The notes beneath the pieces were generated by a model, which did not search any database, had not been told where the DNA came from, and worked only from the letters and a program-made list of their open reading frames with translations. Below, piece after piece: positions 3,946 through 52,087 of a stretch of DNA of 64,000 nt. Numbering within the stretch: the first letter of the stretch is position 1; each line of letters begins with the position of its first letter. A program made the translations under genes and the position numbers. Origin of the DNA: a virus; IMG/VR virus record IMGVR_UViG_3300031521_000012, positions 1-64,000 of that record; one strand, written 5' to 3'.

Positions 3946-3976
3946 TTGCATAACTTATTTTATTGTTGTAGATTTG
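3946..3976 (+). promoter_or_regulatory. Bacteroidota housekeeping-type promoter of the sigma gene
   Basis: TTG at 3946 and TAGATTTG at 3969-3976 (-33/-7 pattern). Confidence 0.65.
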
Positions 3977-4016: not shown

Positions 4017-4580
4017 ATGGAAACCAACAAAACAAGTTTAAATATTACTGATGTTTATAACAAGTACTATTCAGAAATTTTGTACTTAGTTACAATGAAA
4101 GTTAGAAAAGTTGAACTTGCTGAAGATTTAACTTCAGATGTTTTTATTAGAGCTTATAATCACTTGGCTAGTTTTGATAGCAACAAGTGTACTATAAAGA
4201 GCTGGTTAATTGCAATATCAAATAACGCAATTATTGATTATTACAGGTTATCACAAACCAAAACAAATATCAATTTCAGTGACTTGGCAAAGGTTAATAG
4301 CGAAAATGAAGTAATTAGTTTTGATAGCGTATCGGATTACAAAACTGATAACCTTATTAATGCTAAGGAATTTAATCACAAAATAGATGCTATCTTTAAT
4401 AGCATGAAACCAAACTACCAAAAAGTTGCTGAACTATACTTTAAAAAAGATATGAGTTACAATGATATTGCAGCAATTTGTGAAATTCCTTTAGGTAGTG
4501 TTAAGGGAATGATTAACAGGTGCAAAGTATTGTTACAAAGTAATTTACAAGCTGAAAAAGCTGAATATGGCATAAAATAA
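4017..4580 (+). CDS. ECF-type (sigma-70 group 4) RNA polymerase sigma factor
   Basis: 187 aa; region 2 AEDLTSDVFIRAY...KSWLIAISNNAIIDYYR; region 4 MSYNDIAAICEIPLGSVKGMINR. Confidence 0.93.
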   Translation: METNKTSLNITDVYNKYYSEILYLVTMKVRKVELAEDLTSDVFIRAYNHLASFDSNKCTIKSWLIAISNNAIIDYYRLSQTKTNINFSDLAKVNSENEVISFDSVSDYKTDNLINAKEFNHKIDAIFNSMKPNYQKVAELYFKKDMSYNDIAAICEIPLGSVKGMINRCKVLLQSNLQAEKAEYGIK

Positions 4581-4587
4581 GAAATAG

Positions 4588-4624
4588 AAAAGTACCTTGT
4601 GAATATAGCAAGGTACTTTTTTTT
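4588..4624 (+). terminator. Intrinsic terminator after sigma gene
   Basis: AAAAGTACCTTG-loop-CAAGGTACTTTTTTTT. Confidence 0.85.
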
Positions 4625-4632
4625 ACTATTGT

Positions 4633-4663
4633 TGTAACTTTTTACAGTTGTTAACCGTATTAT
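4633..4663 (+). promoter_or_regulatory. ECF-type phage promoter
   Basis: TGTAAC-N17-CGTATTAT; followed within ~50 nt by a terminator. Confidence 0.7.
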
Positions 4664-4709
4664 GAGTGTTCATTTTTATATTTAAGTTTAATATTATTAT
4701 TTATCACTT

Positions 4710-4740
4710 AAAAGCTATCTGTTATTCAGGTAGCTTTTTT
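4710..4740 (+). terminator. Intrinsic terminator
   Basis: AAAAGCTATCTG-TTATT-CAGGTAGCTTTTTT. Confidence 0.7.
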
Positions 4741-4773
4741 GTTTTATATAATGTTCATTTTTTATTTAAAAAC

Positions 4774-4844: not shown

Positions 4845-5114
4845 ATGAGCACAGTTAAGAGCAATGTACCAGTAGTAGTAAGACCTTTGTACACAATAGC
4901 AACTGAAATTCGAAAAGATTGGAGATCGAAAATGTATTTTGGTGCTGTTCCATATATCAATGCAATGTTATCATTGGATAAGCTAACTGATTATTATGGT
5001 AGTGATAGTGCCAGAACAATTGTTATTTATTTTTTGGCTAATGCTCAAACATGGAAAGGTGACAAGGCACGTACCATCAAAGCTGAATTAAATTCAATGC
5101 TGAAAAAACGCTAA
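4845..5114 (+). CDS. Small phage protein of unknown function
   Basis: ORF directly behind promoter; YFGAVPY and YFLANAQTWKG resemble a recurrent small phage family. Confidence 0.8.
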   Translation: MSTVKSNVPVVVRPLYTIATEIRKDWRSKMYFGAVPYINAMLSLDKLTDYYGSDSARTIVIYFLANAQTWKGDKARTIKAELNSMLKKR

Positions 5115-5188
5115 TAATCTGGTCAATGTACGTTGCACTGGTATATCATTGGTGCAATGTACATATAATCTATAAAATACAATGTACT

Positions 5189-5434
5189 ATGAGCACAATG
5201 CAAACATTTTATTTTAATACAGGTGTTAAGCCAGATATGAATACATATAGGCACAAAGATATAAGAATATCAAATGGTACAATAGAAATTCCAATTAATT
5301 GTGAGAATGTTCCTGATGGTGCAAAATTGGAATTTCTATGTGATGATCCTAATCTGTTTATAAATCAAGATTATATTGTTCGTAAAGCATTTAACACTAA
5401 AATGCATTCTCAATATGCATACTTTAAATTATAA
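5189..5434 (+). CDS. Hypothetical protein
   Basis: ORF 5126-5434, likely start MSTMQ at 5189. Confidence 0.65.
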   Translation: MSTMQTFYFNTGVKPDMNTYRHKDIRISNGTIEIPINCENVPDGAKLEFLCDDPNLFINQDYIVRKAFNTKMHSQYAYFKL

Positions 5435-5476
5435 TAACCAATGTACTTATATTAATTAAAAATAAAGCCTATCATT

Positions 5477-5507
5477 TGTAACATTTGATAGGCTTTATAC
5501 GTATTAT
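5477..5507 (+). promoter_or_regulatory. ECF-type phage promoter, -35 in hairpin loop
   Basis: AAAGCCTATCA-tttgtaacatt-TGATAGGCTTT then CGTATTAT. Confidence 0.85.
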
Positions 5508-5534
5508 GTATATAACCACTTAACACAATGTACT

Positions 5535-5888
5535 ATGAACAAGGTAGGAGAAATTATCAATGTACAAGAAATAACCAAAGGTTGTCGCCAGATGGATTTG
5601 ACTGACCTAATGTACGTCTTAAGAAACAATATAAGCCGTTTCTGGTCTTGGGGTAGTCATGCCTTTAGAATTGATCGTAAAGGTAATGTACGCATGTTTA
5701 GAATGGCTGTAAATGGTCGTTTTCATAGTGGTCATGTTTATATATTTCTCAATGGCTTGGACTTGTTTGATGTTTATCTTACTTCAAGTAGAGGCACTAT
5801 TAAACGCATTCAAACAGATTTGTATAATGATATGCTAACTGATTGGATTGATATTGCAGTAGAAAAGATAGGTACATATAAACACTAA
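5535..5888 (+). CDS. Hypothetical protein
   Basis: ORF directly behind promoter. Confidence 0.8.
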   Translation: MNKVGEIINVQEITKGCRQMDLTDLMYVLRNNISRFWSWGSHAFRIDRKGNVRMFRMAVNGRFHSGHVYIFLNGLDLFDVYLTSSRGTIKRIQTDLYNDMLTDWIDIAVEKIGTYKH

Positions 5889-5900
5889 ACACAATGTACA

Positions 5901-6086
5901 ATGAAAGTTAATACAACAATAAATTATAAATTTACATTCTTTAGTCGTGTTCAAAATGATAGTAAAGTTATTGAATGCAAAAGTACTAAGAGTGCCTATC
6001 AAATAGCATATAGTGTATATAAAAAAGCAAGAAAACTTTATCCATCAATATGCTTTGAGGGCATTAAAACCGAAATTATTGAATGA
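5901..6086 (+). CDS. Hypothetical protein
   Basis: Co-oriented small ORF. Confidence 0.6.
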   Translation: MKVNTTINYKFTFFSRVQNDSKVIECKSTKSAYQIAYSVYKKARKLYPSICFEGIKTEIIE

Positions 6087-6159
6087 CCATTCATTGTATC
6101 AATGAATGATTAGACAAATGAGAAGTACAAAGGTTTAATCGAATGATAAAATAAATATC

Positions 6160-6348
6160 ATGAATAAGAAATATAAATTACCACGTAAAAGAAAAAAGGT
6201 ATACATCAAAAAAGATTGGACTGGCTATTATATTAGTGCTTCACTTTCATCTGATGAGTATAAAAGAAAAGTGAATTATAAATTCCCAAAGGTCTATGAT
6301 TTTAACCTTAAAACAGGTGTTATATCAAACATTAAATCATATTGGTAG
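6160..6348 (+). CDS. Hypothetical basic protein
   Basis: Co-oriented small ORF, KLPRKRKK. Confidence 0.6.
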   Translation: MNKKYKLPRKRKKVYIKKDWTGYYISASLSSDEYKRKVNYKFPKVYDFNLKTGVISNIKSYW

Positions 6349-6375
6349 TTTTTAATTAAAAATAGTTATATCTTT

Positions 6376-6405
6376 TGTAACTTTTTGCCTTGTCAAACGT
6401 ATTAT
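6376..6405 (+). promoter_or_regulatory. ECF-type phage promoter
   Basis: TGTAAC-N16-CGTATTAT. Confidence 0.85.
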
Positions 6406-6432
6406 ATGTATAACCACTTAATTAATTCAGTC

Positions 6433-6747
6433 ATGAGCAAGTTAACATACAGTCAGATCGTAAAGCTACAAAAAGCCAATGGCTATGATCAAATACAAGC
6501 TAATATCAATTCAGGTTTAGCTTGGAAGCTAGAAGGTTCATATGGTAGAGCAGCAATGAATTTATTAGTGTCAGGTGCTTGTATGCTACCAAAGGTAGTA
6601 AGAATTGATGCTTATGGTAATAGAGTACCTGCAAGAGATATGCTTAAAGCAGGCACACAAGGCACGTTTCAAAACAGTCAGGACTTTTGGCAGAAAGTGT
6701 ATGAAGGTGAAGTAATATTAAATTTTGATAATGATGATAATGAATAA
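6433..6747 (+). CDS. Hypothetical protein
   Basis: Start moved to ATG 6433 because the track start lies inside the promoter. Confidence 0.8.
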   Translation: MSKLTYSQIVKLQKANGYDQIQANINSGLAWKLEGSYGRAAMNLLVSGACMLPKVVRIDAYGNRVPARDMLKAGTQGTFQNSQDFWQKVYEGEVILNFDNDDNE

Positions 6748-6756
6748 CTAATAATT

Positions 6757-6834
6757 GTTAAGTAGTGTTCATAGGGTAAGAACACCATCGAAAGAGATGG
6801 AGGTACTTTGGTTCGATTCCAAAGCTTAACACTA
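6757..6834 (+). ncRNA. tRNA-like RNA with non-canonical anticodon arm
   Basis: GTTAAG/CTTAAC acceptor, GTGTTC/GAACAC D-arm with GG, TTTGG-TTCGATT-CCAAA T-arm; CCATC-GAAAGA-GATGG 6-nt loop; ends ACTA. Confidence 0.6.
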
Positions 6835-6925
6835 ATAAAATACTTTGTTGTAAGTTTGGGGTAATGTTCCGCTTAATCAGATCGGCATTACCCCTGTTTT
6901 TTTATTTAAAAATAGTTACTATTTT

Positions 6926-6956
6926 TGTAACATTTGATGGTAGTTAAACGTATTAT
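6926..6956 (+). promoter_or_regulatory. ECF-type phage promoter
   Basis: TGTAAC-N17-CGTATTAT; drives non-coding unit A. Confidence 0.85.
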
Positions 6957-6960
6957 AGAT

Positions 6961-7037
6961 ATACAGCGGAGCTACACTAGGGGTAACAGTAATCCATACC
7001 TGCAATAGAGTGTAAGTTTATATTCAATCTAAATAAG
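6961..7037 (+). ncRNA. Conserved non-coding unit A (candidate sRNA or origin transcript plus 19-bp box)
   Basis: ATACAGCGGAGCTACACTAGGGGTAACAGTAATCCATACCTGCAATAGAGTGTAAG; similar copies at 14877 and 19025. Confidence 0.6.
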
Positions 7038-7097
7038 ATACGTATATTAGCGACCATTAATTATTTTTAATTAAAATAACATTTTTTATTTAAAACT

Positions 7098-7127
7098 TGT
7101 AACTTTTTGCCTTGTCAAACGTATTAT
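7098..7127 (+). promoter_or_regulatory. ECF-type phage promoter
   Basis: TGTAAC-N16-CGTATTAT. Confidence 0.85.
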
Positions 7128-7167
7128 AGATATAACCACTTAATATTAACCATTAAAACTTAAGATC

Positions 7168-8055
7168 ATGAGAACCAAGAAAATTAAAACAGGTGCAATT
7201 GAATGCGAAATGAAAGATTTGTTTTTTCCTGTTGAATTGCGTGATGAACTTATGCCCTCTAATAAAGAGTATAGCAAAAGAGTTATTGGCTTAATTAATG
7301 GAGCAGACTTTTTGCTTAACCAGTGTAGTGATGTTTATACCTTGGTAAAAAACATTGATATCTTTCCAAAGATCGAAGATGCTTTAAATGCAGCAGGAAT
7401 CGAATTTTCAGTATCTTACAGGCATATTAATCATGTTCGTTTCTATGCAGACTATAAAATTACTGACAGTCGTTATGCTTACACTATGCAAGGTACTGAT
7501 GATATGATTTGTCCAATGATATCAGTTCATCACAGCTACAATGGCTTAACCAAGTACAAAATTATCTTTGGCTATTTCAGACTTGTTTGTTCCAATGGCT
7601 TAACAATTCCAGTTGCTGAAATGGCACAATTCAATTTGGTTATTGTTGGTAAGCATACTGACAGCATTGAAGGTTCATTCAAAAAGCTTGAAAGCATGTT
7701 ACAATACTTTGTTACTGATGCTGAATATATACTCAATAGCATAACAACAAAGTACGAAGCTTTAAATCAAAAGGTTGTGGCTCAAGCTAATTTTAAAACC
7801 AGACTTGAAGAGGTTTTGGAAGCTTCAAAAATCACAATGGTAGATAACAACAAGTTCAATACTCTTAACGATATCACAATGAGAATCGAAGAGGAAGCAA
7901 ACAACAGTCGTTTAGGCTACAATGGCAAAGTAACTGACTTTCTTATCTACAATGGTATAAATCAATACCTGAACGATGATAACCGTAATATCGTTACTCC
8001 TGAACTCCGTATGGAAAAAGATGCTAAGGTATTAGAATATATGTTAGCAAACTAA
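7168..8055 (+). CDS. DUF932-like protein
   Basis: HSYNG...FRLVCSNGL...KHT motif pattern, 295 aa. Confidence 0.7.
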   Translation: MRTKKIKTGAIECEMKDLFFPVELRDELMPSNKEYSKRVIGLINGADFLLNQCSDVYTLVKNIDIFPKIEDALNAAGIEFSVSYRHINHVRFYADYKITDSRYAYTMQGTDDMICPMISVHHSYNGLTKYKIIFGYFRLVCSNGLTIPVAEMAQFNLVIVGKHTDSIEGSFKKLESMLQYFVTDAEYILNSITTKYEALNQKVVAQANFKTRLEEVLEASKITMVDNNKFNTLNDITMRIEEEANNSRLGYNGKVTDFLIYNGINQYLNDDNRNIVTPELRMEKDAKVLEYMLAN

Positions 8056-8059
8056 AAGT

Positions 8060-8107
8060 AATAAGGGAGTGATAACCAATGTACACTATCACTCCCTTAT
8101 TGTTTTT
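8060..8107 (+). terminator. Intrinsic terminator with CAATGTAC in loop
   Basis: AATAAGGGAGTGATA-accaatgtacac-TATCACTCCCTTATT-gttttt. Confidence 0.8.
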
Positions 8108-8130
8108 AATTAAAAATAGTTACTATATTT

Positions 8131-8161
8131 TGTAACAAAAGCCTATCGTTAAACGTATTAT
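8131..8161 (+). promoter_or_regulatory. ECF-type phage promoter
   Basis: TGTAAC-N17-CGTATTAT. Confidence 0.85.
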
Positions 8162-8188
8162 AAGTATAACCACTTAAAACATTCAGTC

Positions 8189-8743
8189 ATGTTAAAAACA
8201 GTATTTACAGTCGATGAAAGAAACAAAGTTTATGAACTTTCTTTGGTTCACTATAAAAAACGTTTAGTAAAAGGAAACCAATTTGGAATATGCTTTTCAA
8301 TATTGAAAGTACTTGAATATTTATATCCTAATGAATGTTCAGATCGTAATCATTTTAATTGTGATGAATTATCTTTGTTTCCCGAAATCTACAAACATAA
8401 GTCAAAACATAATAGAGACTATTGGTATAGTATTAAAACTAAATATGGTATTGCTAAAAGAATAGCAATCTTCGACCAAGCTATTAAAGAAACTGAACAA
8501 ACTGTTGTAATATTCAGAGCTGAAAGGTCAGGTCAATATAAAATGAGTATCTATGCTTTGTTTCCTTATGTAGCTTATACAGATAAGCTATGTAGTTGTT
8601 ATGCACACGTAGGACAGCATTCTGGAGCTAACTATGACTATTGTATTAAAAACAGTGTTCCTGCCTTACCAGAAGAGTATAGCGACCTGAAAGCTGAACT
8701 TGAAAGTATTGGTTATAACCTGAAAATCCAAAAAAGAAAATAA
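8189..8743 (+). CDS. Fusion: family-A paralogue domain plus second small phage domain
   Basis: N-half FGIC...FPEIYKHK...YWY...KRIAIFDQAIKETE; C-half CYAHVGQHS...ELESIGY. Confidence 0.8.
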   Translation: MLKTVFTVDERNKVYELSLVHYKKRLVKGNQFGICFSILKVLEYLYPNECSDRNHFNCDELSLFPEIYKHKSKHNRDYWYSIKTKYGIAKRIAIFDQAIKETEQTVVIFRAERSGQYKMSIYALFPYVAYTDKLCSCYAHVGQHSGANYDYCIKNSVPALPEEYSDLKAELESIGYNLKIQKRK

Positions 8744-8746
8744 TTT

Positions 8747-8777
8747 TGTAACATATTGGGTGCAATGTACGTTATAT
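8747..8777 (+). promoter_or_regulatory. ECF-type phage promoter (variant -10)
   Basis: TGTAAC-N17-CGTTATAT. Confidence 0.65.
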
Positions 8778-8803
8778 ATATTGCACCCTTAATATATAAA
8801 GCT

Positions 8804-9058
8804 ATGAGCAAAACAATTAGGCATTCAGCAATACCAAGAAACAGGCATAAAAATAAAAAGAATAGATCAACCGATAAGTTCTTTGGTTATCGTGATGGCT
8901 ATACTGATGGTATGAGTAATCCCAAAAAGGGCATTGACTTTGTTAACTATGGCTATCCAAGTGATTATGATTTTAGAACCAAAGCTGAAATCATGCAGAA
9001 AGATGAAGCTAACGACCTGAAAGATATTTTAAATGAATTGATTGAAAGTGAATGTTAA
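8804..9058 (+). CDS. Hypothetical protein
   Basis: Likely start MSKTIRH downstream of promoter. Confidence 0.7.
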   Translation: MSKTIRHSAIPRNRHKNKKNRSTDKFFGYRDGYTDGMSNPKKGIDFVNYGYPSDYDFRTKAEIMQKDEANDLKDILNELIESEC

Positions 9059-9084
9059 CATATTTTAATTAAAAACATAAAGCT

Positions 9085-9429
9085 ATGACAAAAACAGGTA
9101 AGTTCACTAAGAAAGAAAAATATAAAATATATTGTACTGCATTAGCAATGTACAAAGCAAATTCCAATAAAGTATATTGGTCTTCATGGGGATTATGCGA
9201 AGCTATTGAACGAGCATTGAAGTCTATATATGGATATTCATACTTTGTGCAATATTCACCTTATTATCATGATATGATTGAGTTTTATCCTGAAATTGCT
9301 AAGCATAAGCCATTAAATAATTATAAGGATGGTTCATATTGGTTTGAAGTCAATTGTGAAGATGGTTATGATAAAAGAGTGACAATTCTTGAGCAGGCTA
9401 TTGAGAAAACTAAGCCAGTAGAGAAGTAA
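9085..9429 (+). CDS. Family-A paralogue
   Basis: WGLC...YPEIAKHKP...YWF...KRVTILEQAIEKTK. Confidence 0.85.
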   Translation: MTKTGKFTKKEKYKIYCTALAMYKANSNKVYWSSWGLCEAIERALKSIYGYSYFVQYSPYYHDMIEFYPEIAKHKPLNNYKDGSYWFEVNCEDGYDKRVTILEQAIEKTKPVEK

Positions 9430-9478
9430 TATTTTAATTAAAAACAGTTAATTATTTTTGAAATAAACCCTATCATTT

Positions 9479-9509
9479 TGTAACATTTGATAGGGTTTAT
9501 CCGTATTAT
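9479..9509 (+). promoter_or_regulatory. ECF-type phage promoter, -35 in hairpin loop
   Basis: AAACCCTATCA-ttttgtaacatt-TGATAGGGTTT then CGTATTAT. Confidence 0.85.
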
Positions 9510-9536
9510 AAGTATAACCACTTAACACAATGTACT

Positions 9537-9809
9537 ATGACAATGTTTAGCCACAATCCCGACAAGTTAATTTACACAGGTAAGAGTAAAGTTAAAAGAT
9601 ACCAATGTACGTTCATACGTTCAGGCAGACGTGATTTAGAAACAGTAACTATTGATCAGATGGATAAGGTTCAAGCACGTAGCCAGTGTGCCAAGGAATT
9701 TGGGAGGCTGGATTACTTTAATGCAGTTGATATACATGAACCAATTAAAATTGAAACTGATATTAAAGATGGCTATGGAAACATAGTTAAGGTAGGTGAC
9801 AAAATTTAA
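9537..9809 (+). CDS. Hypothetical protein
   Basis: ORF behind promoter. Confidence 0.75.
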   Translation: MTMFSHNPDKLIYTGKSKVKRYQCTFIRSGRRDLETVTIDQMDKVQARSQCAKEFGRLDYFNAVDIHEPIKIETDIKDGYGNIVKVGDKI

Positions 9810-9813
9810 TAAT

Positions 9814-10188
9814 ATGAAAAAGAGTAGAGTCATTGCTAACTATGGTATTGAGAGAAACAAAAAGCCATTAGCAAATATCATATACACTATTGAGGTTGTT
9901 TCACCTACTCAATTAAAACCAAGTACTGACTTGTCTAAGCTAGAAGAGTTTAAGTTCAAAGATTTGGGCTACATAACAATAACAAGTGAATATGAAGGTA
10001 AGGAAGAGAGTCGTGCTTGGAATGGATTTAGAACACCAAAGTATATTCAAACCTTATTAGGCGAAAAGCAATGGTCTAAATTTTGTCAGGGTAAAAGAAA
10101 GTTTGTTATTCAGCGTAGGTATGATGGTAAAAACATTAAACTTGTTAAGCAACAAATATTTAATCAAATATTAAATGATAACTTGTAA
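9814..10188 (+). CDS. Hypothetical protein
   Basis: ORF 9796-10188, likely ATG 9814. Confidence 0.75.
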   Translation: MKKSRVIANYGIERNKKPLANIIYTIEVVSPTQLKPSTDLSKLEEFKFKDLGYITITSEYEGKEESRAWNGFRTPKYIQTLLGEKQWSKFCQGKRKFVIQRRYDGKNIKLVKQQIFNQILNDNL

Positions 10189-10214
10189 CCTTTTCTACTT
10201 AAGAAACGTATTAT
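10184..10214 (+). promoter_or_regulatory. ECF-type phage promoter
   Basis: TGTAAC-N17-CGTATTAT overlapping upstream stop. Confidence 0.85.
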
Positions 10215-10240
10215 AGGTATAACCACTTAATCATAAAGCT

Positions 10241-10663
10241 ATGGAAAATAACATTAAACTAACCTTAGTTAAAACAGTTAACTATGATTTAAATCCATTC
10301 GGAAAGTTCTTAATTAAAGATATTGCATTTGATAAGAGAGCAACCAATGCTAATCCCAAAACGTTGTTATTCAACGTAATAACTTTCGATGAAAGAGCTG
10401 GTATGCCATATGATGAAGACCAGTATAATATGATAGTCAAGTACATGAAAAAGAATAAGACTGACATATTAGTAAGTAGAGATACTTACAATACAAATAC
10501 CTACTATACTCTTATGGGTAAAAATCTTGTTGAGATCACACATCCCAAACTTCGCATATATCAAAACTTTATTGAGAGTCATTTCTTAAAAGATGCACCA
10601 ATTGATGAAGCTTGGCAAAAGTTTGATGCTTGGTATAAAGCCAGTAAGTATGTCATTTTTTAA
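10241..10663 (+). CDS. Hypothetical protein
   Basis: ORF behind promoter. Confidence 0.8.
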   Translation: MENNIKLTLVKTVNYDLNPFGKFLIKDIAFDKRATNANPKTLLFNVITFDERAGMPYDEDQYNMIVKYMKKNKTDILVSRDTYNTNTYYTLMGKNLVEITHPKLRIYQNFIESHFLKDAPIDEAWQKFDAWYKASKYVIF

Positions 10664-10705
10664 TTAAAAACAGTTGTAATTAATTATAATTTAAACCCTA
10701 TCATT

Positions 10706-10736
10706 TGTAACATTTGATAGGGTTTAAACGTATTAT
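10706..10736 (+). promoter_or_regulatory. ECF-type phage promoter, -35 in hairpin loop
   Basis: TTAAACCCTATCA-tttgtaacatt-TGATAGGGTTTAA then CGTATTAT. Confidence 0.85.
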
Positions 10737-10763
10737 AGATATAACCACTTAAAACCTATTGTC

Positions 10764-11102
10764 ATGACAAAGAAAGAATTTAAAGAACTTGCAAGTGTAC
10801 ATATGTACGGCAAAAGAAGTAATGGCATGATAGCTATTTACTATGACTGGAAACAAGGTGAAATAGATGGTAATATTTTTGTTGGCTTTAAGTATGCTAT
10901 CTTCACAAGGCAGGGAAACATAACACAAGTTAAATTATTAAAGTTATTCTATGAATTGATTTTTGAGGTTAGCGAAGTTGATTTGCCATACTATGTAACA
11001 TTTGTAAAAGTAAGCGATATTAACAGATTTAAAGTTCCTATCACAAGTAACGGTTTAAATCATTTAGATAATATATATAATGAAGCTGAAAATCATTACT
11101 AA
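10764..11102 (+). CDS. Hypothetical protein
   Basis: ORF behind promoter. Confidence 0.8.
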   Translation: MTKKEFKELASVHMYGKRSNGMIAIYYDWKQGEIDGNIFVGFKYAIFTRQGNITQVKLLKLFYELIFEVSEVDLPYYVTFVKVSDINRFKVPITSNGLNHLDNIYNEAENHY

Positions 11103-11126
11103 TAATTAAAAATAAACCCTATCATT

Positions 11127-11157
11127 TGTAACATTTGATAGGGTTTAAACGTATTAT
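11127..11157 (+). promoter_or_regulatory. ECF-type phage promoter, -35 in hairpin loop
   Basis: AAACCCTATCA-tttgtaacatt-TGATAGGGTTT then CGTATTAT. Confidence 0.85.
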
Positions 11158-11185
11158 AAGTATAACCACTTAAAACCATAAAGCT

Positions 11186-11401
11186 ATGAAGACTTATTAT
11201 TATGACCTGCATGTTTTTTTCAGTAGAAATGATGGCTATTCAATTCCAATTGCACTTGAAAGCATTGATGAATTGTCCGAATATGAAGTAATTGAACTTG
11301 CAATTGAAATGGATTTATTTCAGGAAGATGGTGACCAAAATCAAGTCGATTATGTATTGAATATTGATGAAGTTGAATATAACCAAATGAAGGGAATTTA
11401 A
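11186..11401 (+). CDS. Small acidic protein
   Basis: ORF behind promoter, D/E-rich. Confidence 0.8.
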   Translation: MKTYYYDLHVFFSRNDGYSIPIALESIDELSEYEVIELAIEMDLFQEDGDQNQVDYVLNIDEVEYNQMKGI

Positions 11402-11423
11402 TCTAAAAATAAAGCCTACTATT

Positions 11424-11454
11424 TGTAACATTTAGTAGGCTTTATCCGTATAAT
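11424..11454 (+). promoter_or_regulatory. ECF-type phage promoter, -35 in hairpin loop
   Basis: AAAGCCTACTA-tttgtaacatt-TAGTAGGCTTT then CGTATAAT. Confidence 0.85.
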
Positions 11455-11482
11455 ATGTATAACCACTTAAAACCATAAAACT

Positions 11483-11755
11483 ATGTTCCTCGATGATCAA
11501 ATTATTCAGACAGTAAAAGAACTGACTAGCAAAAGAGAGTCAGCAGCAATCATCAAAGCAAATGTATTTAATACTTGCATTGATAAGTTACAGGCAGATC
11601 AAACCGTATTGGGTTTTGAGAAAGCATTACACAGGGTAAATTCATACTTTGATGTTGCAGCTAATAAGCTAAGCAAGCAAAACAATACTTGCATCAAAGT
11701 AGGTCAGTTCAATGCATTCGTTAATTCAACATTGAAAATTGCTAAATATTTATAA
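11483..11755 (+). CDS. Hypothetical protein
   Basis: ORF behind promoter. Confidence 0.8.
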   Translation: MFLDDQIIQTVKELTSKRESAAIIKANVFNTCIDKLQADQTVLGFEKALHRVNSYFDVAANKLSKQNNTCIKVGQFNAFVNSTLKIAKYL

Positions 11756-11792
11756 GCTATGACAAATCATTTTTAATTAAAAACTGTAAGCT

Positions 11793-11978
11793 ATGTATGA
11801 AATAATTGAAATTACTCATAAGAACTGGTATAATCTTACCAATCAATTGAATGCAAAGTCAGGTATTGAAGTCATTCAAGTATTGGAAACTGTAACACGT
11901 TATGGTCAATATCCTGAAGACCCAAAACACTATGAGTCACAAGTTTTAGTTAAAAACATTCTCACTGATATTGGATAA
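11793..11978 (+). CDS. Hypothetical protein
   Basis: Co-oriented small ORF. Confidence 0.65.
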   Translation: MYEIIEITHKNWYNLTNQLNAKSGIEVIQVLETVTRYGQYPEDPKHYESQVLVKNILTDIG

Positions 11979-12005
11979 ACTATTTTAAAAATAAACCCTA
12001 CTAAT

Positions 12006-12036
12006 TGTAACTTTTAGTAGGGTTTAAACGTATTAT
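12006..12036 (+). promoter_or_regulatory. ECF-type phage promoter, -35 in hairpin loop
   Basis: AAACCCTACTAA-ttgtaactt-TTAGTAGGGTTT then CGTATTAT. Confidence 0.85.
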
Positions 12037-12063
12037 AGATATAACCACTTAACACTTAAAATC

Positions 12064-13293
12064 ATGTTGGAAACAGGAATAGTCCATTTCTCAATAGGTG
12101 AGGAGTTTGGAATAAGAATAATGGAAATTGCTCAAGAACATTTAATCTATGGAAACAATCCTATCAAAGCATTAAGAACCATTACTGACAGTCTTATGGG
12201 TTGTCCAGATGATCTGGCACTCAGAATTTTAAAAGGTGATATGGTTTTACCTGTTGATGTTGATACGCAAGAAGTTATTTGTCAAGATCGTATTCCAGTT
12301 GTTCATGATCAATATCCTAAAATTGATGTATTGTATTATGCTCAATCCAATGCAGGTGTTATTGAAGATCATACGCATGATTTTATTGAGTCGTTTAATA
12401 TTTTGCAAAACAGAATTAGATATAATTCTTATAAGTTCAGTTTTAGTTTTGATATCAATTCAATACTGAAATATTGCTCAGGTGATGATAGTGGAATATT
12501 AGATGAACTTGAATACGATGCAGAGGTTAATGGTATTGGTGCATTGGTTAAGTGTGCAAAGATATTCATTGAAAAGGGAATGAAAACCATATCCATATTG
12601 GATTGGATGATCAAAAATTGGGGACATGACAAAAATTTCATGGATGATAATAAGCCATTTATTGAAAACATGTGCGTTAATGAAGATGAATATTTGGTAT
12701 TGTATAATAGAAAACTAATGTCCGATTGTATTATGCAGGTCGTACAAGCATTGCAAACAACTGTTGATGGTTCATTTAAAGTTGATGATATTGATGAAGA
12801 CAATAGCTTGCAAAACTATATTGATGCTTCACTGGAAATCAATAAGGTATTGTCCACTGAAATTCAACCTGTTAACATATTAGATAAATACAGCGCAGGT
12901 TGGTTAAGTCCCGAAGGTGATTTTTATGCTTTGAACGGTGAAATTGCAAATATGCTTCACAATCAAATTGCAGATGCTTTACAGGAAAAAGGAATTGTAC
13001 CTAGTGATGAAATATTAGATAATCATTCCAAAGATGCATGGCTTGAACAACAAGGTTGGGTAAAAATACATGGAGATAATGTACAGTTCGGTGGTTGCTT
13101 GAATAGTCAAATTGGTTTAATCAATGTTGATATAACCAATGTACAAGCAAGGCTAATATATGAATATGGGCAAATAGCTTGTAATGGTGTATTATCAATG
13201 GGCTGGAAACGTGAACGCATTTCAGCGGTGAAGTTTCAAATGTTATATGAAGCAAACATACCGTTTTTAAATAAAACATATTTTGAGTTTTAG
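12064..13293 (+). CDS. Hypothetical protein (409 aa)
   Basis: Long ORF; C-terminal GWLSPEGDFY...H...GWVKI module. Confidence 0.85.
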   Translation: MLETGIVHFSIGEEFGIRIMEIAQEHLIYGNNPIKALRTITDSLMGCPDDLALRILKGDMVLPVDVDTQEVICQDRIPVVHDQYPKIDVLYYAQSNAGVIEDHTHDFIESFNILQNRIRYNSYKFSFSFDINSILKYCSGDDSGILDELEYDAEVNGIGALVKCAKIFIEKGMKTISILDWMIKNWGHDKNFMDDNKPFIENMCVNEDEYLVLYNRKLMSDCIMQVVQALQTTVDGSFKVDDIDEDNSLQNYIDASLEINKVLSTEIQPVNILDKYSAGWLSPEGDFYALNGEIANMLHNQIADALQEKGIVPSDEILDNHSKDAWLEQQGWVKIHGDNVQFGGCLNSQIGLINVDITNVQARLIYEYGQIACNGVLSMGWKRERISAVKFQMLYEANIPFLNKTYFEF

Positions 13294-13326
13294 TGGTTAT
13301 AAACTTTAAATAAAAAAGCCAGTCAT

Positions 13327-13357
13327 TGTAACATTTGACTGGCTTTAAACGTATAAT
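13327..13357 (+). promoter_or_regulatory. ECF-type phage promoter, -35 in hairpin loop
   Basis: AAAGCCAGTCA-ttgtaacatt-TGACTGGCTTT then CGTATAAT. Confidence 0.85.
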
Positions 13358-13380
13358 AGATATACTAATAACATAAAGCA

Positions 13381-13776
13381 ATGGAAGATACTTTAATCAC
13401 ACTAAAAACATTTCATTCAGCTAAGGAAAAGGGTTTCAGTAATATCAAAACCTTTTACGATAGAGTAAAGAAAAGCTATTGTGATGCAAGAGGTGAGCCA
13501 ACAAATGAAACTTATTTCCGTGCTGAACTTGTGACTGAAGAGGTTATTCCTACTCAATCACTTTTGGCTAAATGGCTACGTGAAGTACATTTAATTTATA
13601 TTAGTGTTATCATATCCGATACTGATGATTATATTAATGAACCACGTTATAAGGTTGAAGTAAGAATGAGAAGAGGTGATATGCTTAAAATGTTTAAAAC
13701 AACCTATATGTTTTTAAAGTATGATGATGCTTTAGAAACGGGTTTACAAGAAGCATTAAAATTGATAAAGTTATAA
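13381..13776 (+). CDS. Hypothetical phage protein
   Basis: PTQSLLAKWLREVH...ALETGLQEALKLI. Confidence 0.8.
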   Translation: MEDTLITLKTFHSAKEKGFSNIKTFYDRVKKSYCDARGEPTNETYFRAELVTEEVIPTQSLLAKWLREVHLIYISVIISDTDDYINEPRYKVEVRMRRGDMLKMFKTTYMFLKYDDALETGLQEALKLIKL

Positions 13777-13796
13777 CATTTTTAATTAAAAATTGT

Positions 13797-14000
13797 ATGT
13801 CAAAAATTATATTAGACGTTACTGATTGTAACGTCAGAGAGTTATCAATAGTTCATGATGCTTTAAAATCATTAAATAAAGCAGTAGCAAGCATGAAAGT
13901 GTTTAGTGATACATTTGTGTCGGTAAGCAAAGATAATGCAGCAGAAGCAGCTAAAATGAACGATATTGATACTAATGCTATATGTGAACATTTCTTTTAG
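13797..14000 (+). CDS. Hypothetical protein
   Basis: Co-oriented small ORF. Confidence 0.65.
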   Translation: MSKIILDVTDCNVRELSIVHDALKSLNKAVASMKVFSDTFVSVSKDNAAEAAKMNDIDTNAICEHFF

Positions 14001-14068
14001 GCTTAAGTGGTTTTAAGTTTTAATTAAAAATTGCATGGCTATATTGGTCATGCTTTTTTGTTATTATT

Positions 14069-14098
14069 TGTAACTTTTAACCAAGTCAAACGTATTAT
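14069..14098 (+). promoter_or_regulatory. ECF-type phage promoter
   Basis: TGTAAC-N16-CGTATTAT. Confidence 0.85.
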
Positions 14099-14841: not shown

Positions 14842-14872
14842 TGTAACATTTAACCCTACTTAAACGTATTAT
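14842..14872 (+). promoter_or_regulatory. ECF-type phage promoter
   Basis: TGTAAC-N17-CGTATTAT; drives non-coding unit B. Confidence 0.85.
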
Positions 14873-14876
14873 ATGT

Positions 14877-14953
14877 ATACAGCGGAGTTACACTAGGGGT
14901 ATCGGTAATCCACTCCTGCAATAGAGTGTAAGTTTAGAATGATTCTAAATTAG
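14877..14953 (+). ncRNA. Conserved non-coding unit B
   Basis: ATACAGCGGAGTTACACTAGGGGTATCGGTAATCCACTCCTGCAATAGAGTGTAAG then TTTAGAATGATTCTAAAT. Confidence 0.6.
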
Positions 14954-15068
14954 CAATATTTGTAACATGTTTACAAAATAGTGATCACATATTACTATTA
15001 ATGACTATCTTTGCAAAGATAATGGGTAATAAAACTACTTAAAATATTATCAATTAATTGTGATAATC

Positions 15069-15098
15069 TGTAACCTTTTGCCTTGTCAAACGTATTAT
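15069..15098 (+). promoter_or_regulatory. ECF-type phage promoter
   Basis: TGTAAC-N16-CGTATTAT. Confidence 0.85.
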
Positions 15099-18989: not shown

Positions 18990-19020
18990 TGTAACATTTA
19001 CCCCTACTTAAACGTATAAT
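18990..19020 (+). promoter_or_regulatory. ECF-type phage promoter
   Basis: TGTAAC-N17-CGTATAAT; drives non-coding unit C. Confidence 0.85.
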
Positions 19021-19024
19021 ACAT

Positions 19025-19101
19025 ATACAGCAGAGTTACACTAGGGGTATCAGTAATCCATACCTGCCCGATAGTCAAAGTTTATATTCAGTCTAAATAA
19101 G
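19025..19101 (+). ncRNA. Conserved non-coding unit C
   Basis: ATACAGCAGAGTTACACTAGGGGTATCAGTAATCCATACCTGC...GTTTATATTCAGTCTAAATAAG. Confidence 0.6.
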
Positions 19102-19193
19102 ATAATACATAATTACAACTAAAGACGTTTTTAATTAAAAATACTTTAACTTTCGATTATGCAACTATTATTAAATAAAAATCTTTCGAGTTG

Positions 19194-19223
19194 TGTAACA
19201 TTTTGGCTTCTCAAACGTATTAT
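19194..19223 (+). promoter_or_regulatory. ECF-type phage promoter
   Basis: TGTAAC-N16-CGTATTAT. Confidence 0.85.
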
Positions 19224-51819: not shown

Positions 51820-51850
51820 ATTATACGTATGAACCGTATGAAATGTTACA
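51820..51850 (-). promoter_or_regulatory. ECF-type phage promoter
   Basis: TGTAAC-N17-CGTATAAT on minus strand. Confidence 0.85.
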
Positions 51851-51886
51851 AAAAATCACCATTATTTTCATAGTGGTGATTTTTTA

Positions 51887-52087
51887 TTAGAAAATTCTTA
51901 ATAGCCATGTATAGGCTTTAGGACTGATGCGATATATAATATTGCTACATTGACTTAACCAAACGTTATGCCAAGAACCAACATTGCACATATTGCAATC
52001 TTCTTTATGACTTTGATGCGCACTACAGATTGAGTACCATCGTTTCCGCCAAAAGAATTTACCACTATCGGCTTTATTGTTTTCCAT
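51887..52087 (-). CDS. Small Cys/His protein
   Basis: CSAH...CNMC. Confidence 0.7.
   Translation of the reverse strand: MENNKADSGKFFWRKRWYSICSAHQSHKEDCNMCNVGSWHNVWLSQCSNIIYRISPKAYTWLLRIF

What the first reader, a model, noticed from the sequence alone, without database searches (positions are those of the whole stretch)
5464..13346. Promoters whose -35 box sits in the loop of a covarying hairpin
Seen: seven ECF-type promoters have an 11-13-bp inverted repeat framing TGTAAC, with the right arm filling the -35/-10 spacer. The arms change while pairing is kept: AAAGCCTATCA/TGATAGGCTTT (5464), AAACCCTATCA/TGATAGGGTTT (~9465, 10694, 11114), AAAGCCTACTA/TAGTAGGCTTT (11411), AAACCCTACTAA/TTAGTAGGGTTT (~11994), AAAGCCAGTCA/TGACTGGCTTT (13315). 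These compensatory changes indicate selection on structure. Inference: either a compact fused terminator-promoter module that stops read-through exactly where it re-initiates, or a DNA cruciform that presents or hides the -35 element depending on supercoiling (loosely analogous to N4 hairpin promoters).
Basis: partly seen in the sequence, partly recalled or inferred. Interest (0 to 1): 0.8.

Follow-up and report, generated by a model that had tools for sequence, protein, structure and literature searches.

The report
Terminator-like hairpins wrapped around phage promoters
Seven promoters of an uncultured giant phage sit inside perfect, covarying hairpins that most likely end the preceding transcript where the next one starts, a compact stop-and-restart design already known from T4-like phages and here built on a different (ECF sigma) promoter.

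Summary
Seven of about 42 TGTAAC-N16/17-CGTATWAT promoters in this 168-kb phage record have a perfect 11-14-bp inverted repeat. It encloses the -35 box, and its right arm lies in the spacer. All 66 pair cells are paired, and 5 of 11 pairs change on both sides.

The promoter is ECF-type. A phage ECF sigma gene (4017-4580) heads the array, as it does in at least three of five related giant phages.

These look like RNA hairpins at the 3' ends of the preceding genes, that is leaky intrinsic terminators fused with the next promoter.

- Each follows a co-oriented stop codon by 22-49 nt.
- They occupy the place that separate terminator-plus-promoter pairs occupy elsewhere.
- Four relatives have 15 more such hairpins with unrelated stems in three registers, each followed by T4-T7.
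- Those stems show G·T but no A·C mismatches.

The weak points are a T-run of only three, loops of 9-12 nt and no RNA data.

The cruciform and N4-like idea is not supported, because 35 promoters lack the hairpin and relatives put the -35 in the stem.

This is a variant of the published PeSL cassettes. This scan has noted the design many times on other DNA. Interest is modest.

The parts
4017..4580 (+). Phage ECF-type sigma factor gene (187 aa) at the head of the promoter array
   Evidence: It carries Sigma70_r2 and Sigma70_r4_2 and scores above the cut-off for TIGR02937 sigma70-ECF. Homologues are present in all five related phages searched, and in G001, G003 and G004 they sit directly ahead of the promoter array.
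5464..5507 (+). Module 1: hairpin 5464-5496 (AAAGCCTATCA / TGATAGGCTTT), -35 TGTAAC at 5477-5482 in the loop, -10 CGTATTAT at 5500-5507
   Evidence: The upstream ORF stop at 5434 lies 42 nt before TGTAAC, and the next ORF starts at 5535.
9465..9509 (+). Module 2: hairpin 9465-9498 (AAACCCTATCA / TGATAGGGTTT, 12-nt loop), -35 at 9479-9484, -10 at 9502-9509
   Evidence: The upstream ORF ends at 9429 and the next ORF starts at 9537.
10693..10736 (+). Module 3: hairpin 10693-10725 (AAACCCTATCA / TGATAGGGTTT), -35 at 10706-10711, -10 at 10729-10736
   Evidence: The upstream ORF ends at 10663 and the next ORF starts at 10764.
11114..11157 (+). Module 4: hairpin 11114-11146 (same arms as module 3), -35 at 11127-11132, -10 at 11150-11157
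   Evidence: The upstream ORF ends at 11102 and the next ORF starts at 11186.
11411..11454 (+). Module 5: hairpin 11411-11443 (AAAGCCTACTA / TAGTAGGCTTT), -35 at 11424-11429, -10 CGTATAAT at 11447-11454
   Evidence: The upstream ORF ends at 11401 and the next ORF starts at 11483.
11993..12036 (+). Module 6: hairpin 11993-12025 (AAACCCTACTAA / TTAGTAGGGTTT, 9-nt loop), -35 at 12006-12011, -10 at 12029-12036
   Evidence: The upstream ORF ends at 11978 and the 409-aa ORF starts at 12064. The orthologous junction in L127 has a separate terminator abutting the promoter.
13315..13357 (+). Module 7: hairpin 13315-13346 (AAAGCCAGTCA / TGACTGGCTTT, 10-nt loop), -35 at 13327-13332, -10 CGTATAAT at 13350-13357
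   Evidence: The upstream 409-aa ORF ends at 13293 and the next ORF starts at 13381.
4586..4662 (+). Comparison case: stand-alone intrinsic terminator (4586-4622, 15-bp stem, T8) lying 11 nt ahead of a promoter (TGTAAC at 4633)
14033..14098 (+). Comparison case: stand-alone terminator (14033-14053, 9-bp stem, T6) lying 16 nt ahead of a promoter (TGTAAC at 14069). It closes the transcription unit opened by module 7.

Best explanation
The seven inverted repeats are most likely RNA hairpins made when transcription from the preceding promoter reads through the end of the preceding gene. They would act as compact, probably leaky, intrinsic terminators or attenuators, and at the least as hairpins that protect the 3' end. 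They have been packed into the next promoter.

The 5' arm replaces the sequence just upstream of the -35 box. The box forms the tip of the hairpin, where UGUAACA can add two pairs and a UAA triloop. The 3' arm and a short T-run fill the variable middle of the spacer.

The promoter itself is read as ordinary duplex DNA, most probably by host RNA polymerase carrying the phage ECF sigma factor encoded at 4017-4580, and it does not need the hairpin. The result is a row of insulated single- or two-gene cassettes with 81-107-nt junctions instead of 126-264 nt.

Shown: the hairpins, their covariation, their position, and the same design in relatives. Inferred: that the structure acts in RNA, that it terminates, and which sigma factor reads the promoter.
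For: 1. Structure under selection. The stems are perfect: 100% of cells are paired, 5 of 11 pairs change on both sides, and 0 of 500 shuffles match. Z-scores are -3.8 to -5.5.

2. Position. All seven lie 22-49 nt after the stop of a co-oriented ORF and 25-30 nt ahead of the next ATG. From 10.7 to 14.1 kb every transcription unit is bounded by such a module, and the last unit is closed by a classical terminator plus promoter (14033-14098).

3. Compact terminator-promoter pairs elsewhere in the same phage. Classical terminators end 2-16 nt before, or run 2 nt into, TGTAAC at promoters 4633, 14069, 35475, 51850 and 80447.

4. The hairpin is not needed for the promoter. Thirty-five of 42 copies have none.

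5. Relatives. Four giant-phage records with the same promoter carry 15 further hairpins that overlap the promoter. A homologous sigma gene sits directly ahead of the promoter array in three of them and close to its far end in the fourth. The stems are unrelated in sequence (CCCC/GGGG, CCATG/CATGG, TTGCCCTG/CAGGGCAA) and fall in three registers. Each of the eleven whose right arm lies in the spacer has a run of 4-7 T there, whereas 7-24% of hairpin-free promoters in their genomes have a run of 4 or more. In the window's own phage, T3 is present in 7 of 7 hairpin promoters against 6% of the others.

6. Strand asymmetry. In the strong stems of relatives, an unbiased single-mismatch search finds 4 G·T and 0 A·C. 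There is also a G·T in each of the four hairpins whose 3' arm is the -35 box. This fits folding of the sense RNA rather than a two-stranded cruciform.

7. Twenty-one of 22 hairpin promoters across the five genomes follow a co-oriented ORF; the exception lies at a contig end.

8. Orthologous junction. Upstream of the homologue of the 409-aa gene, contig L127 (71% amino-acid identity) has a classical terminator (8-bp stem, 4-nt loop, T5) abutting TGTAAC, at the spot where this phage has module 6.

9. Precedent. PeSL stem-loops inside or overlapping promoters terminated transcription in lacZ fusion assays (PMC2839356).
Against: - The tail after the G/C core is only TTTAWMCG (3-4 T of 8), against 6-8 T in the phage's stand-alone terminators. 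Termination, if any, is probably partial.
- Loops are 9-12 nt, larger than in typical terminators.
- The seven stems are perfect Watson-Crick, so by themselves they cannot tell RNA folding from DNA folding. The G·T argument comes only from relatives, and several of those copies are paralogues.
- On the opposite strand the hairpins are followed by a better T-run (TTTATTTTT or T6). That run comes from the A-rich element shared with hairpin-free promoters.
- No transcript 3' ends could be examined.
- Half-arm-like sequences in the spacers of promoters 8131 and 14842 are not explained by this reading.
Confidence: 0.6

Rival explanations
1. The hairpin forms in the read-through RNA but does not terminate transcription. 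It only blocks 3'-to-5' exonucleases, or marks a processing site, so that the upstream mRNA keeps a stable end.
For: The position, covariation and sense-strand G·T evidence are the same as for termination. The short T-run (T3) and large loops fit a stabiliser better than an efficient terminator.
Against: In relatives the overlapping hairpins are each followed by T4-T7, which a pure stabiliser does not need. A stabiliser also gives no reason to squeeze the hairpin into the promoter so that it ends just ahead of the -10 box.
Confidence: 0.15
2. The palindromes matter mainly as DNA. They would be recombination-prone repeats that shuffle gene cassettes, as proposed for PeSLs. Their perfect symmetry would be kept by hairpin-templated repair or gene conversion rather than by selection for a transcriptional function.
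For: A module of about 75-85 bp is conserved (79% mean column identity) and flanks unrelated small ORFs; only one paralogous pair was found among 30 ORFs. Modules 3 and 4 have identical hairpins. The inner stem plus loop is one contiguous stretch that a single conversion could replace. All four combinations of the G/C and TATC/TACT variants occur. Junctions differ between relatives. PeSL-mediated mini-circles are documented (PMC2839356).
Against: This does not explain the T-run that accompanies the hairpins in all five genomes. It does not explain the G·T-only mismatches. It does not explain why 35 equally repeated promoters have no palindrome. No recombination event could be shown, because no close relative was found.
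Confidence: 0.1
3. The two arms are half-sites of an operator for a dimeric DNA-binding protein that sits over the -35 box and spacer and switches these seven early promoters off or on.
For: The arm centres are 22 bp apart, about two helical turns. The outer parts AAASCC and GGSTTT are conserved. Single arm-like sequences occur in the spacers of promoters 8131 and 14842.
Against: Half-sites read independently by a protein should drift independently. Here five positions change on both arms together and no cell is unpaired. Relatives have hairpins of unrelated sequence at the same place. The half-site is not enriched elsewhere in the genome.
Confidence: 0.07
4. The inverted repeat extrudes as a DNA cruciform under negative supercoiling and so hides or presents the -35 box. 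This would be a supercoil-sensitive promoter loosely like the N4 early promoters.
For: Each strand folds as DNA at about -11 kcal/mol with z-scores of -5 to -6.5, and the centre is AT-rich. The seven stems are perfect on both strands.
Against: ECF sigma region 4 reads duplex DNA (established knowledge). Thirty-five of 42 copies of the promoter have no repeat. The unpaired centre of 9-12 nt disfavours extrusion (established knowledge). In relatives the -35 box is in the loop, in the 5' arm or forms the 3' arm. Relatives tolerate G·T, which would be A·C on the other strand.
Confidence: 0.05

Closest known systems
PeSL (promoter-early stem-loop) cassettes of T4-type phages RB49/phi1, T4/PST and KVP40/nt-1 (Arbiol et al. 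2010, PMC2839356; Comeau et al. 2014, PMC4122927)
   Same: Both are repeated intergenic modules between small ORFans, made of an AT-rich stretch, a promoter and a stem-loop. The published stem-loop position classes include 'overlapping the -35 box' and 'between -35 and -10'. The nt-1 stems read A3-4 G3 ... C3 T3-4, much like AAASCC...GGSTTT here. The proposed role is to terminate upstream transcription and restart.
   Different: The promoter here is ECF-type (TGTAAC-N17-CGTATWAT) and is probably read by a phage-encoded ECF sigma factor, not by host sigma-70 or MotA. No Shine-Dalgarno sequence is present. The phage is an uncultured giant phage, probably of Bacteroidota, and is not shown to be T4-type. 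All seven copies use one register, with the whole -35 box in the loop. Terminator activity and recombination are untested.
Classical intrinsic (Rho-independent) terminators, including the phage's own at 4586-4622 and 14033-14053
   Same: A stable G/C-containing hairpin directly after a co-oriented gene, followed by T residues.
   Different: Only three consecutive T, against 6-8 in the phage's own terminators. Loops are 9-12 nt. The element doubles as promoter sequence.
Hairpin early promoters of coliphage N4, read by the virion RNA polymerase (from established knowledge, not checked here)
   Same: A promoter element lies in a hairpin.
   Different: In N4 the small hairpin (5-7-bp stem, 3-nt loop) is itself the recognition element, and every early promoter has it. 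Here the stems are 11-14 bp, the loops 9-12 nt, and 35 of 42 promoters have no hairpin.
ECF (group 4) sigma promoters, e.g. Bacillus subtilis sigma-W TGAAAC-N16-CGTA (from memory) and motif SM6 of Flavobacterium psychrophilum (PMC9723704)
   Same: A -35 box ending in AAC, a 16-17-nt spacer and a CGT box at -10. [quoted passage not shown]
   Different: This concerns the promoter class only and says nothing about hairpins. The SM6 -35 sequence could not be read from the text.

Membership tests
PeSL cassettes of T4-type phages | Repeated intergenic module between co-oriented small ORF(an)s | tested here: met
   All seven lie in 81-107-nt gaps between + strand ORFs. The flanking ORFs are unrelated to each other and have no Pfam family.
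PeSL cassettes of T4-type phages | Stem-loop inside or overlapping the promoter (published classes include overlap with the -35 box) | tested here: met
   The class definition is in PMC2839356.
PeSL cassettes of T4-type phages | [quoted passage not shown] | tested here: met
   TTAATTAAAAATAAA-type tracts precede the hairpin promoters and several hairpin-free promoters.
PeSL cassettes of T4-type phages | Sigma-70-like early promoter (or Mot-box middle promoter) read with host sigma-70 | tested here: not met
   The motif is TGTAAC-N16/17-CGTATWAT. Read as sigma-70 hexamers, TGTAAC and TATWAT are 18-19 nt apart. A phage ECF sigma gene is adjacent.
PeSL cassettes of T4-type phages | Stem-loop terminates or attenuates upstream transcription | not testable with these tools
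   No RNA data were available. Only indirect support exists.
PeSL cassettes of T4-type phages | Modules mediate insertion, deletion or exchange of cassettes between close relatives | tested here: inconclusive
   No close relative was found. Two distant homologous junctions differ in layout, but no breakpoint could be placed.
PeSL cassettes of T4-type phages | The carrier is a T4-type myovirus | tested here: inconclusive
   rIIA, rIIB and Dda-like helicases are present. rIIA is under 32% identical to that of any isolated phage. No gp23-type capsid was found in the half-complete record, and the control for that search was uninformative.
Intrinsic terminator | Stable G/C-containing hairpin just downstream of a co-oriented gene | tested here: met
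   There are 4-5 G-C pairs in 11-14 bp, with energies of -16.7 to -18.9 kcal/mol. The distance from stop codon to TGTAAC is 22-49 nt.
Intrinsic terminator | U-rich tract (about 5 or more of 8) directly after the stem | tested here: not met
   The tail is TTTAWMCG, 3-4 T of 8. The simple terminator scan did not list them. Relatives do meet this feature, with T4-T7.
Intrinsic terminator | Small loop (3-8 nt) | tested here: not met
   Loops are 9-12 nt. RNAfold adds two pairs and a UAA triloop inside in four of the seven.
N4-type hairpin promoter | The hairpin is the recognition element, so all promoters of the class carry it | tested here: not met
   Thirty-five of 42 promoters with the same boxes have no hairpin.
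ECF sigma-dependent promoter | -35 box with AAC, -10 box with CGT, 16-17-nt spacer, upstream of genes in the right orientation | tested here: met
   There are 41-42 copies, all oriented with the downstream gene. The ATG follows the -10 box by about 15-65 nt.
ECF sigma-dependent promoter | A cognate two-domain (sigma2 + sigma4) sigma factor is available | tested here: met
   ORF 4017-4580 scores above the cut-off for TIGR02937. Homologues are present in all five related phages that carry the motif, and in G001, G003 and G004 they sit directly ahead of the array.
ECF sigma-dependent promoter | Mapped transcription start and dependence on that sigma factor | not testable with these tools
   No expression data are available.

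The most novel reading that the evidence does not exclude
Placing the terminator inside the promoter may not be mere packing. It could be a device for coupled termination and re-initiation, in which core polymerase released from the RNA at the T-run already sits on the next promoter and is recaptured there by the phage ECF sigma factor (polymerase recycling). Alternatively, the palindrome could also work as a supercoil- or transcription-sensitive DNA switch on the -35 box.
Probability: 0.07. Interest if true: 0.7.

Novelty: new variant of a known kind. Interest (0 to 1): 0.3.

Why it matters
The finding shows that the stop-and-restart cassette design described for T4-like coliphages and vibriophages also occurs in a distant group of uncultured giant phages that run their early and middle genes from their own ECF-type promoters. 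It also shows that the hairpin can be laid over the -35 box in three different registers.

This helps in three practical ways. It aids annotation of transcription units in such phages. It supplies natural examples of very compact insulated expression cassettes of about 45 nt for terminator plus promoter. It offers a clean test system for how much U-tract a terminator needs when space is limited by a -10 box.

It is not a new principle.

Tried and rejected
- **Close relatives for orthologous covariation.** Megablast of 5000-14000 against isolated phages found nothing. Protein-pattern scans of viral contigs with the sigma factor and with the 409-aa protein found nothing. A metagenome scan gave only two short, distant contigs.
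- **T4-type membership.** rIIA is only distantly related to any isolated phage, and no gp23 match was found. I therefore do not call the phage T4-like.
- **Rfam.** Nothing relevant lies in 4-24 kb. The only hit, ncr1015 at 4545-4624, is below the gathering score and spans the end of the sigma gene and the terminator hairpin after it.
- **Operator idea.** A genome-wide search for the half-site found it essentially only in the hairpins, plus two promoter spacers.
- **Paralogy of flanking genes as the source of the repeats.** Only one weak paralogous pair was found.
- **Sigma-70 reading of the promoter.** I rejected this because the hexamer spacing would be 18-20 nt and because the CGT box is invariant.

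Full report
**What the DNA is**

The window is the first 64 kb of a 167,971-bp IMG/VR virus record. CheckV rates it 51% complete and its G+C content is 30.7%. Genes are not preceded by Shine-Dalgarno sequences.

The record encodes rIIA, rIIB and two Dda-like helicases. rIIA is under 32% identical to that of any isolated phage, and no gp23-type capsid was found in the held half. I therefore treat it as an uncultured giant phage, probably of a Bacteroidota host, and not as a demonstrated T4-type phage.

**The promoter**

The motif TGTAAC-N16/17-CGTATWA occurs 41 times in the record, all between 4.6 and 84.6 kb. Each copy is oriented with the downstream gene, whose ATG follows the -10 box by about 15-65 nt. 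The geometry is that of ECF sigma promoters: AAC at -35, CGT at -10 and a 16-17-nt spacer.

Directly upstream of the first copy lies a 187-aa two-domain sigma factor gene (4017-4580). It carries Sigma70_r2 and r4_2 and scores above the cut-off for TIGR02937. A second ECF-like sigma gene lies at 108180-108800.

Five other IMG/VR records with the same promoter have 22-50 copies each, against 0-1 for the reversed control pattern. All five carry a homologue of this sigma factor. In G001, G003 and G004 it sits directly ahead of the promoter-dense array. In G002 it lies at the other end of the record from the array, which is close only if the record is circularly permuted.

The sigma gene itself is preceded by TTG-N20-TAGATTTG (3946-3976). 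This resembles the Bacteroidota primary-sigma consensus as I recall it, and the link is an inference. 'ECF-type promoter' is therefore a fair description. Which sigma factor reads it is inferred.

**The observation**

Exactly seven promoters, all on the + strand between 5.4 and 13.4 kb, carry a perfect inverted repeat that encloses the -35 box.

- RNA folding gives -16.7 to -18.9 kcal/mol for these seven. Every other promoter is weaker than -5.5 kcal/mol.
- Z-scores in the context of the upstream 3' region are -3.8 to -5.5.
- When upstream halves are swapped among promoters, a mean of 0.29 (maximum 2) reach -14 kcal/mol, against 7 observed.
- On the hairpin alignment, 66 of 66 cells pair. Six pairs never vary, five change on both sides (G-C/C-G, U-A/A-U, A-U/G-C, U-A/C-G, C-G/U-A) and none changes on one side only.
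- No shuffle of 500 reaches the covariation score. Sliding the partner by one column drops pairing to 47-53%.

One caveat applies. The inner stem plus loop is one contiguous stretch of about 21 nt, so a single conversion event can swap it. The number of independent events is therefore smaller than the number of changed cells.

**Anatomy**

Each hairpin starts about 8-35 nt after the stop codon of a co-oriented ORF. The next ORF starts 25-30 nt after the -10 box. The flanking ORFs are unrelated to each other and have no known family.

The right arm occupies spacer positions 4-14. These are the variable middle of the spacer in hairpin-free promoters, whereas the first 3-4 nt ([ACT]TTT) and the last 3 nt are conserved in most copies.

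After the G/C core come TTT and then A-W-M-CGTAT. UGUAACA at the tip can form two extra pairs around a UAA triloop.

From 10.7 to 14.1 kb every transcription unit starts at such a promoter and ends at the next hairpin. The last unit ends at a classical terminator (14033-14053, T6) that lies 16 nt ahead of the next promoter. Elsewhere in the phage, classical terminators end 2-16 nt before TGTAAC at promoters 4633, 14069, 35475 and 80447, and run 2 nt into it at 51850. Tight terminator-promoter junctions are therefore the rule in this genome, and the seven hairpins occupy the same positional slot.

**Related phages**

I assembled four related records from fetched stretches. G001 to G004 contain 15 further strong hairpins that overlap the same promoter, with stems unrelated in sequence to those here. 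They fall in three registers:

- the whole -35 box lies in the loop (G001 106379, G003 276031);
- TGTA(A) of the box lies in the 5' arm and pairs with TACA in the spacer, leaving a 3-5-nt loop (G001 100047, G002 323374, G003 272055 and 288146);
- the box itself forms the 3' arm, as in GGTTGCA-GAAA-TGTAACC followed by T6 (G003 272533 and three copies in G004).

'The -35 box in the loop' is therefore not the conserved feature. What is conserved is a stable hairpin that ends in a T-run before the -10 box.

- The eleven relatives whose right arm lies in the spacer have T-runs of 4-7 there. Only 7-24% of hairpin-free promoters in their genomes have a run of 4 or more.
- In the window's phage, all seven hairpin promoters have T3, against 6% of the others.
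- A search that allowed any single internal mismatch found 4 G·T and 0 A·C in the strong stems.
- The four hairpins of the third register each hold a further G·T.
- Twenty-one of 22 hairpin promoters follow a co-oriented ORF; the exception lies at a contig end.

At the junction upstream of the homologue of the 409-aa gene, a metagenome contig with 71% amino-acid identity has a classical terminator (8-bp stem, 4-nt loop, T5) abutting TGTAAC. A 45%-identical contig has the promoter alone. The two layouts therefore replace each other at one and the same junction.

**Interpretation**

The evidence points to a structure that acts in the sense read-through RNA at the end of the preceding gene. That means an intrinsic terminator or attenuator, or at least a 3'-end hairpin, overlapped with the next promoter.

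Its weak points for this phage are these:

- the T-run is short (3-4 T of 8, against 6-8 in the phage's stand-alone terminators);
- the loops are 9-12 nt;
- the seven stems are perfect, so they do not themselves distinguish RNA from DNA;
- the opposite strand has a better T-run, though this is a by-product of the A-rich upstream element shared with hairpin-free promoters;
- no RNA data are available.

I therefore expect partial termination and give the reading 0.6.

The cruciform and N4-like alternative is not supported. Thirty-five of 42 promoters work without any repeat, the box sits in the stem in relatives, and G·T pairs would be A·C on the other strand.

A protein operator is unlikely, given strictly compensatory changes and unrelated stems in relatives. 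Arm-like sequences in the spacers of promoters 8131 and 14842 remain unexplained.

**Comparison with known systems**

The closest described system is the PeSL cassette of T4-type phages. [quoted passage not shown] Five position classes were published, including overlap with the -35 box and placement between the boxes. Terminator activity was shown with lacZ fusions, and a role in cassette shuffling was proposed (PMC2839356; PMC4122927).

The elements here work like PeSLs but fail one defining feature, because the promoter is ECF-type and not sigma-70-like. The carrier is also not shown to be T4-type. I therefore class them as a new variant of a known kind.

This scan has already noted the same design many times on other DNA, including with ECF-type promoters. 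I reached the PeSL comparison before reading those notes, and they agree with it.

Noticed in passing
window 6926-7100, 14842-15072, 18990-19197 (+): Three paralogous ORF-free units, each behind a TGTAAC promoter, share a conserved transcript start of about 80 nt (ACAGCGGAGYTACACTAGGGGTA...). They have no Rfam or tRNA match. They are a candidate small RNA family in three copies. Another reader of this window noted them as well.
   Followed up: partly
window 4633-4745 (+): A promoter (TGTAAC at 4633) is followed after about 50 nt by a classical terminator (4710-4738, T6) with no credible ORF between them. This is a candidate tiny RNA unit directly behind the sigma gene.
   Followed up: no
window 3946-3976 (+): TTG-N20-TAGATTTG lies about 40 nt ahead of the sigma gene's ATG and resembles the Bacteroidota primary-sigma promoter consensus. 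This suggests a cascade from host sigma to phage ECF sigma to the TGTAAC promoters.
   Followed up: no
window 8131-8160 and 14842-14871 (+): Promoters without a hairpin carry the left-arm sequence (AAAGCCTATC and AACCCTACT) in direct orientation inside the spacer, where the hairpin promoters carry its complement. These may be remnants of rearranged modules, or the spacer may tolerate either strand.
   Followed up: partly
window 6364-6386 (+): At promoter 6376 the -35 box may itself form the 3' arm of a weak hairpin (AGTTATA-TCTTT-TGTAACT with one G·T) followed by T5. This is the same register that is strong in relatives G003 and G004.
   Followed up: partly
window 35478-35510 and 51847-51890 (- strand); G000 80449-80485: Classical terminators whose T-run runs directly into the T-rich stretch ahead of TGTAAC. 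They end 2-3 nt before the box, or 2 nt inside it.
   Followed up: partly
G000 108180-108800 (-), outside the window: A second ECF-like sigma gene (206 aa) lies among the later genes. It may serve a different promoter class.
   Followed up: no
G002 (IMGVR_UViG_3300037424_001372) 35-62 and 324588-324615: The same hairpin promoter occurs at both ends of the 324.7-kb record, which suggests a terminal repeat or a circularly permuted assembly.
   Followed up: no
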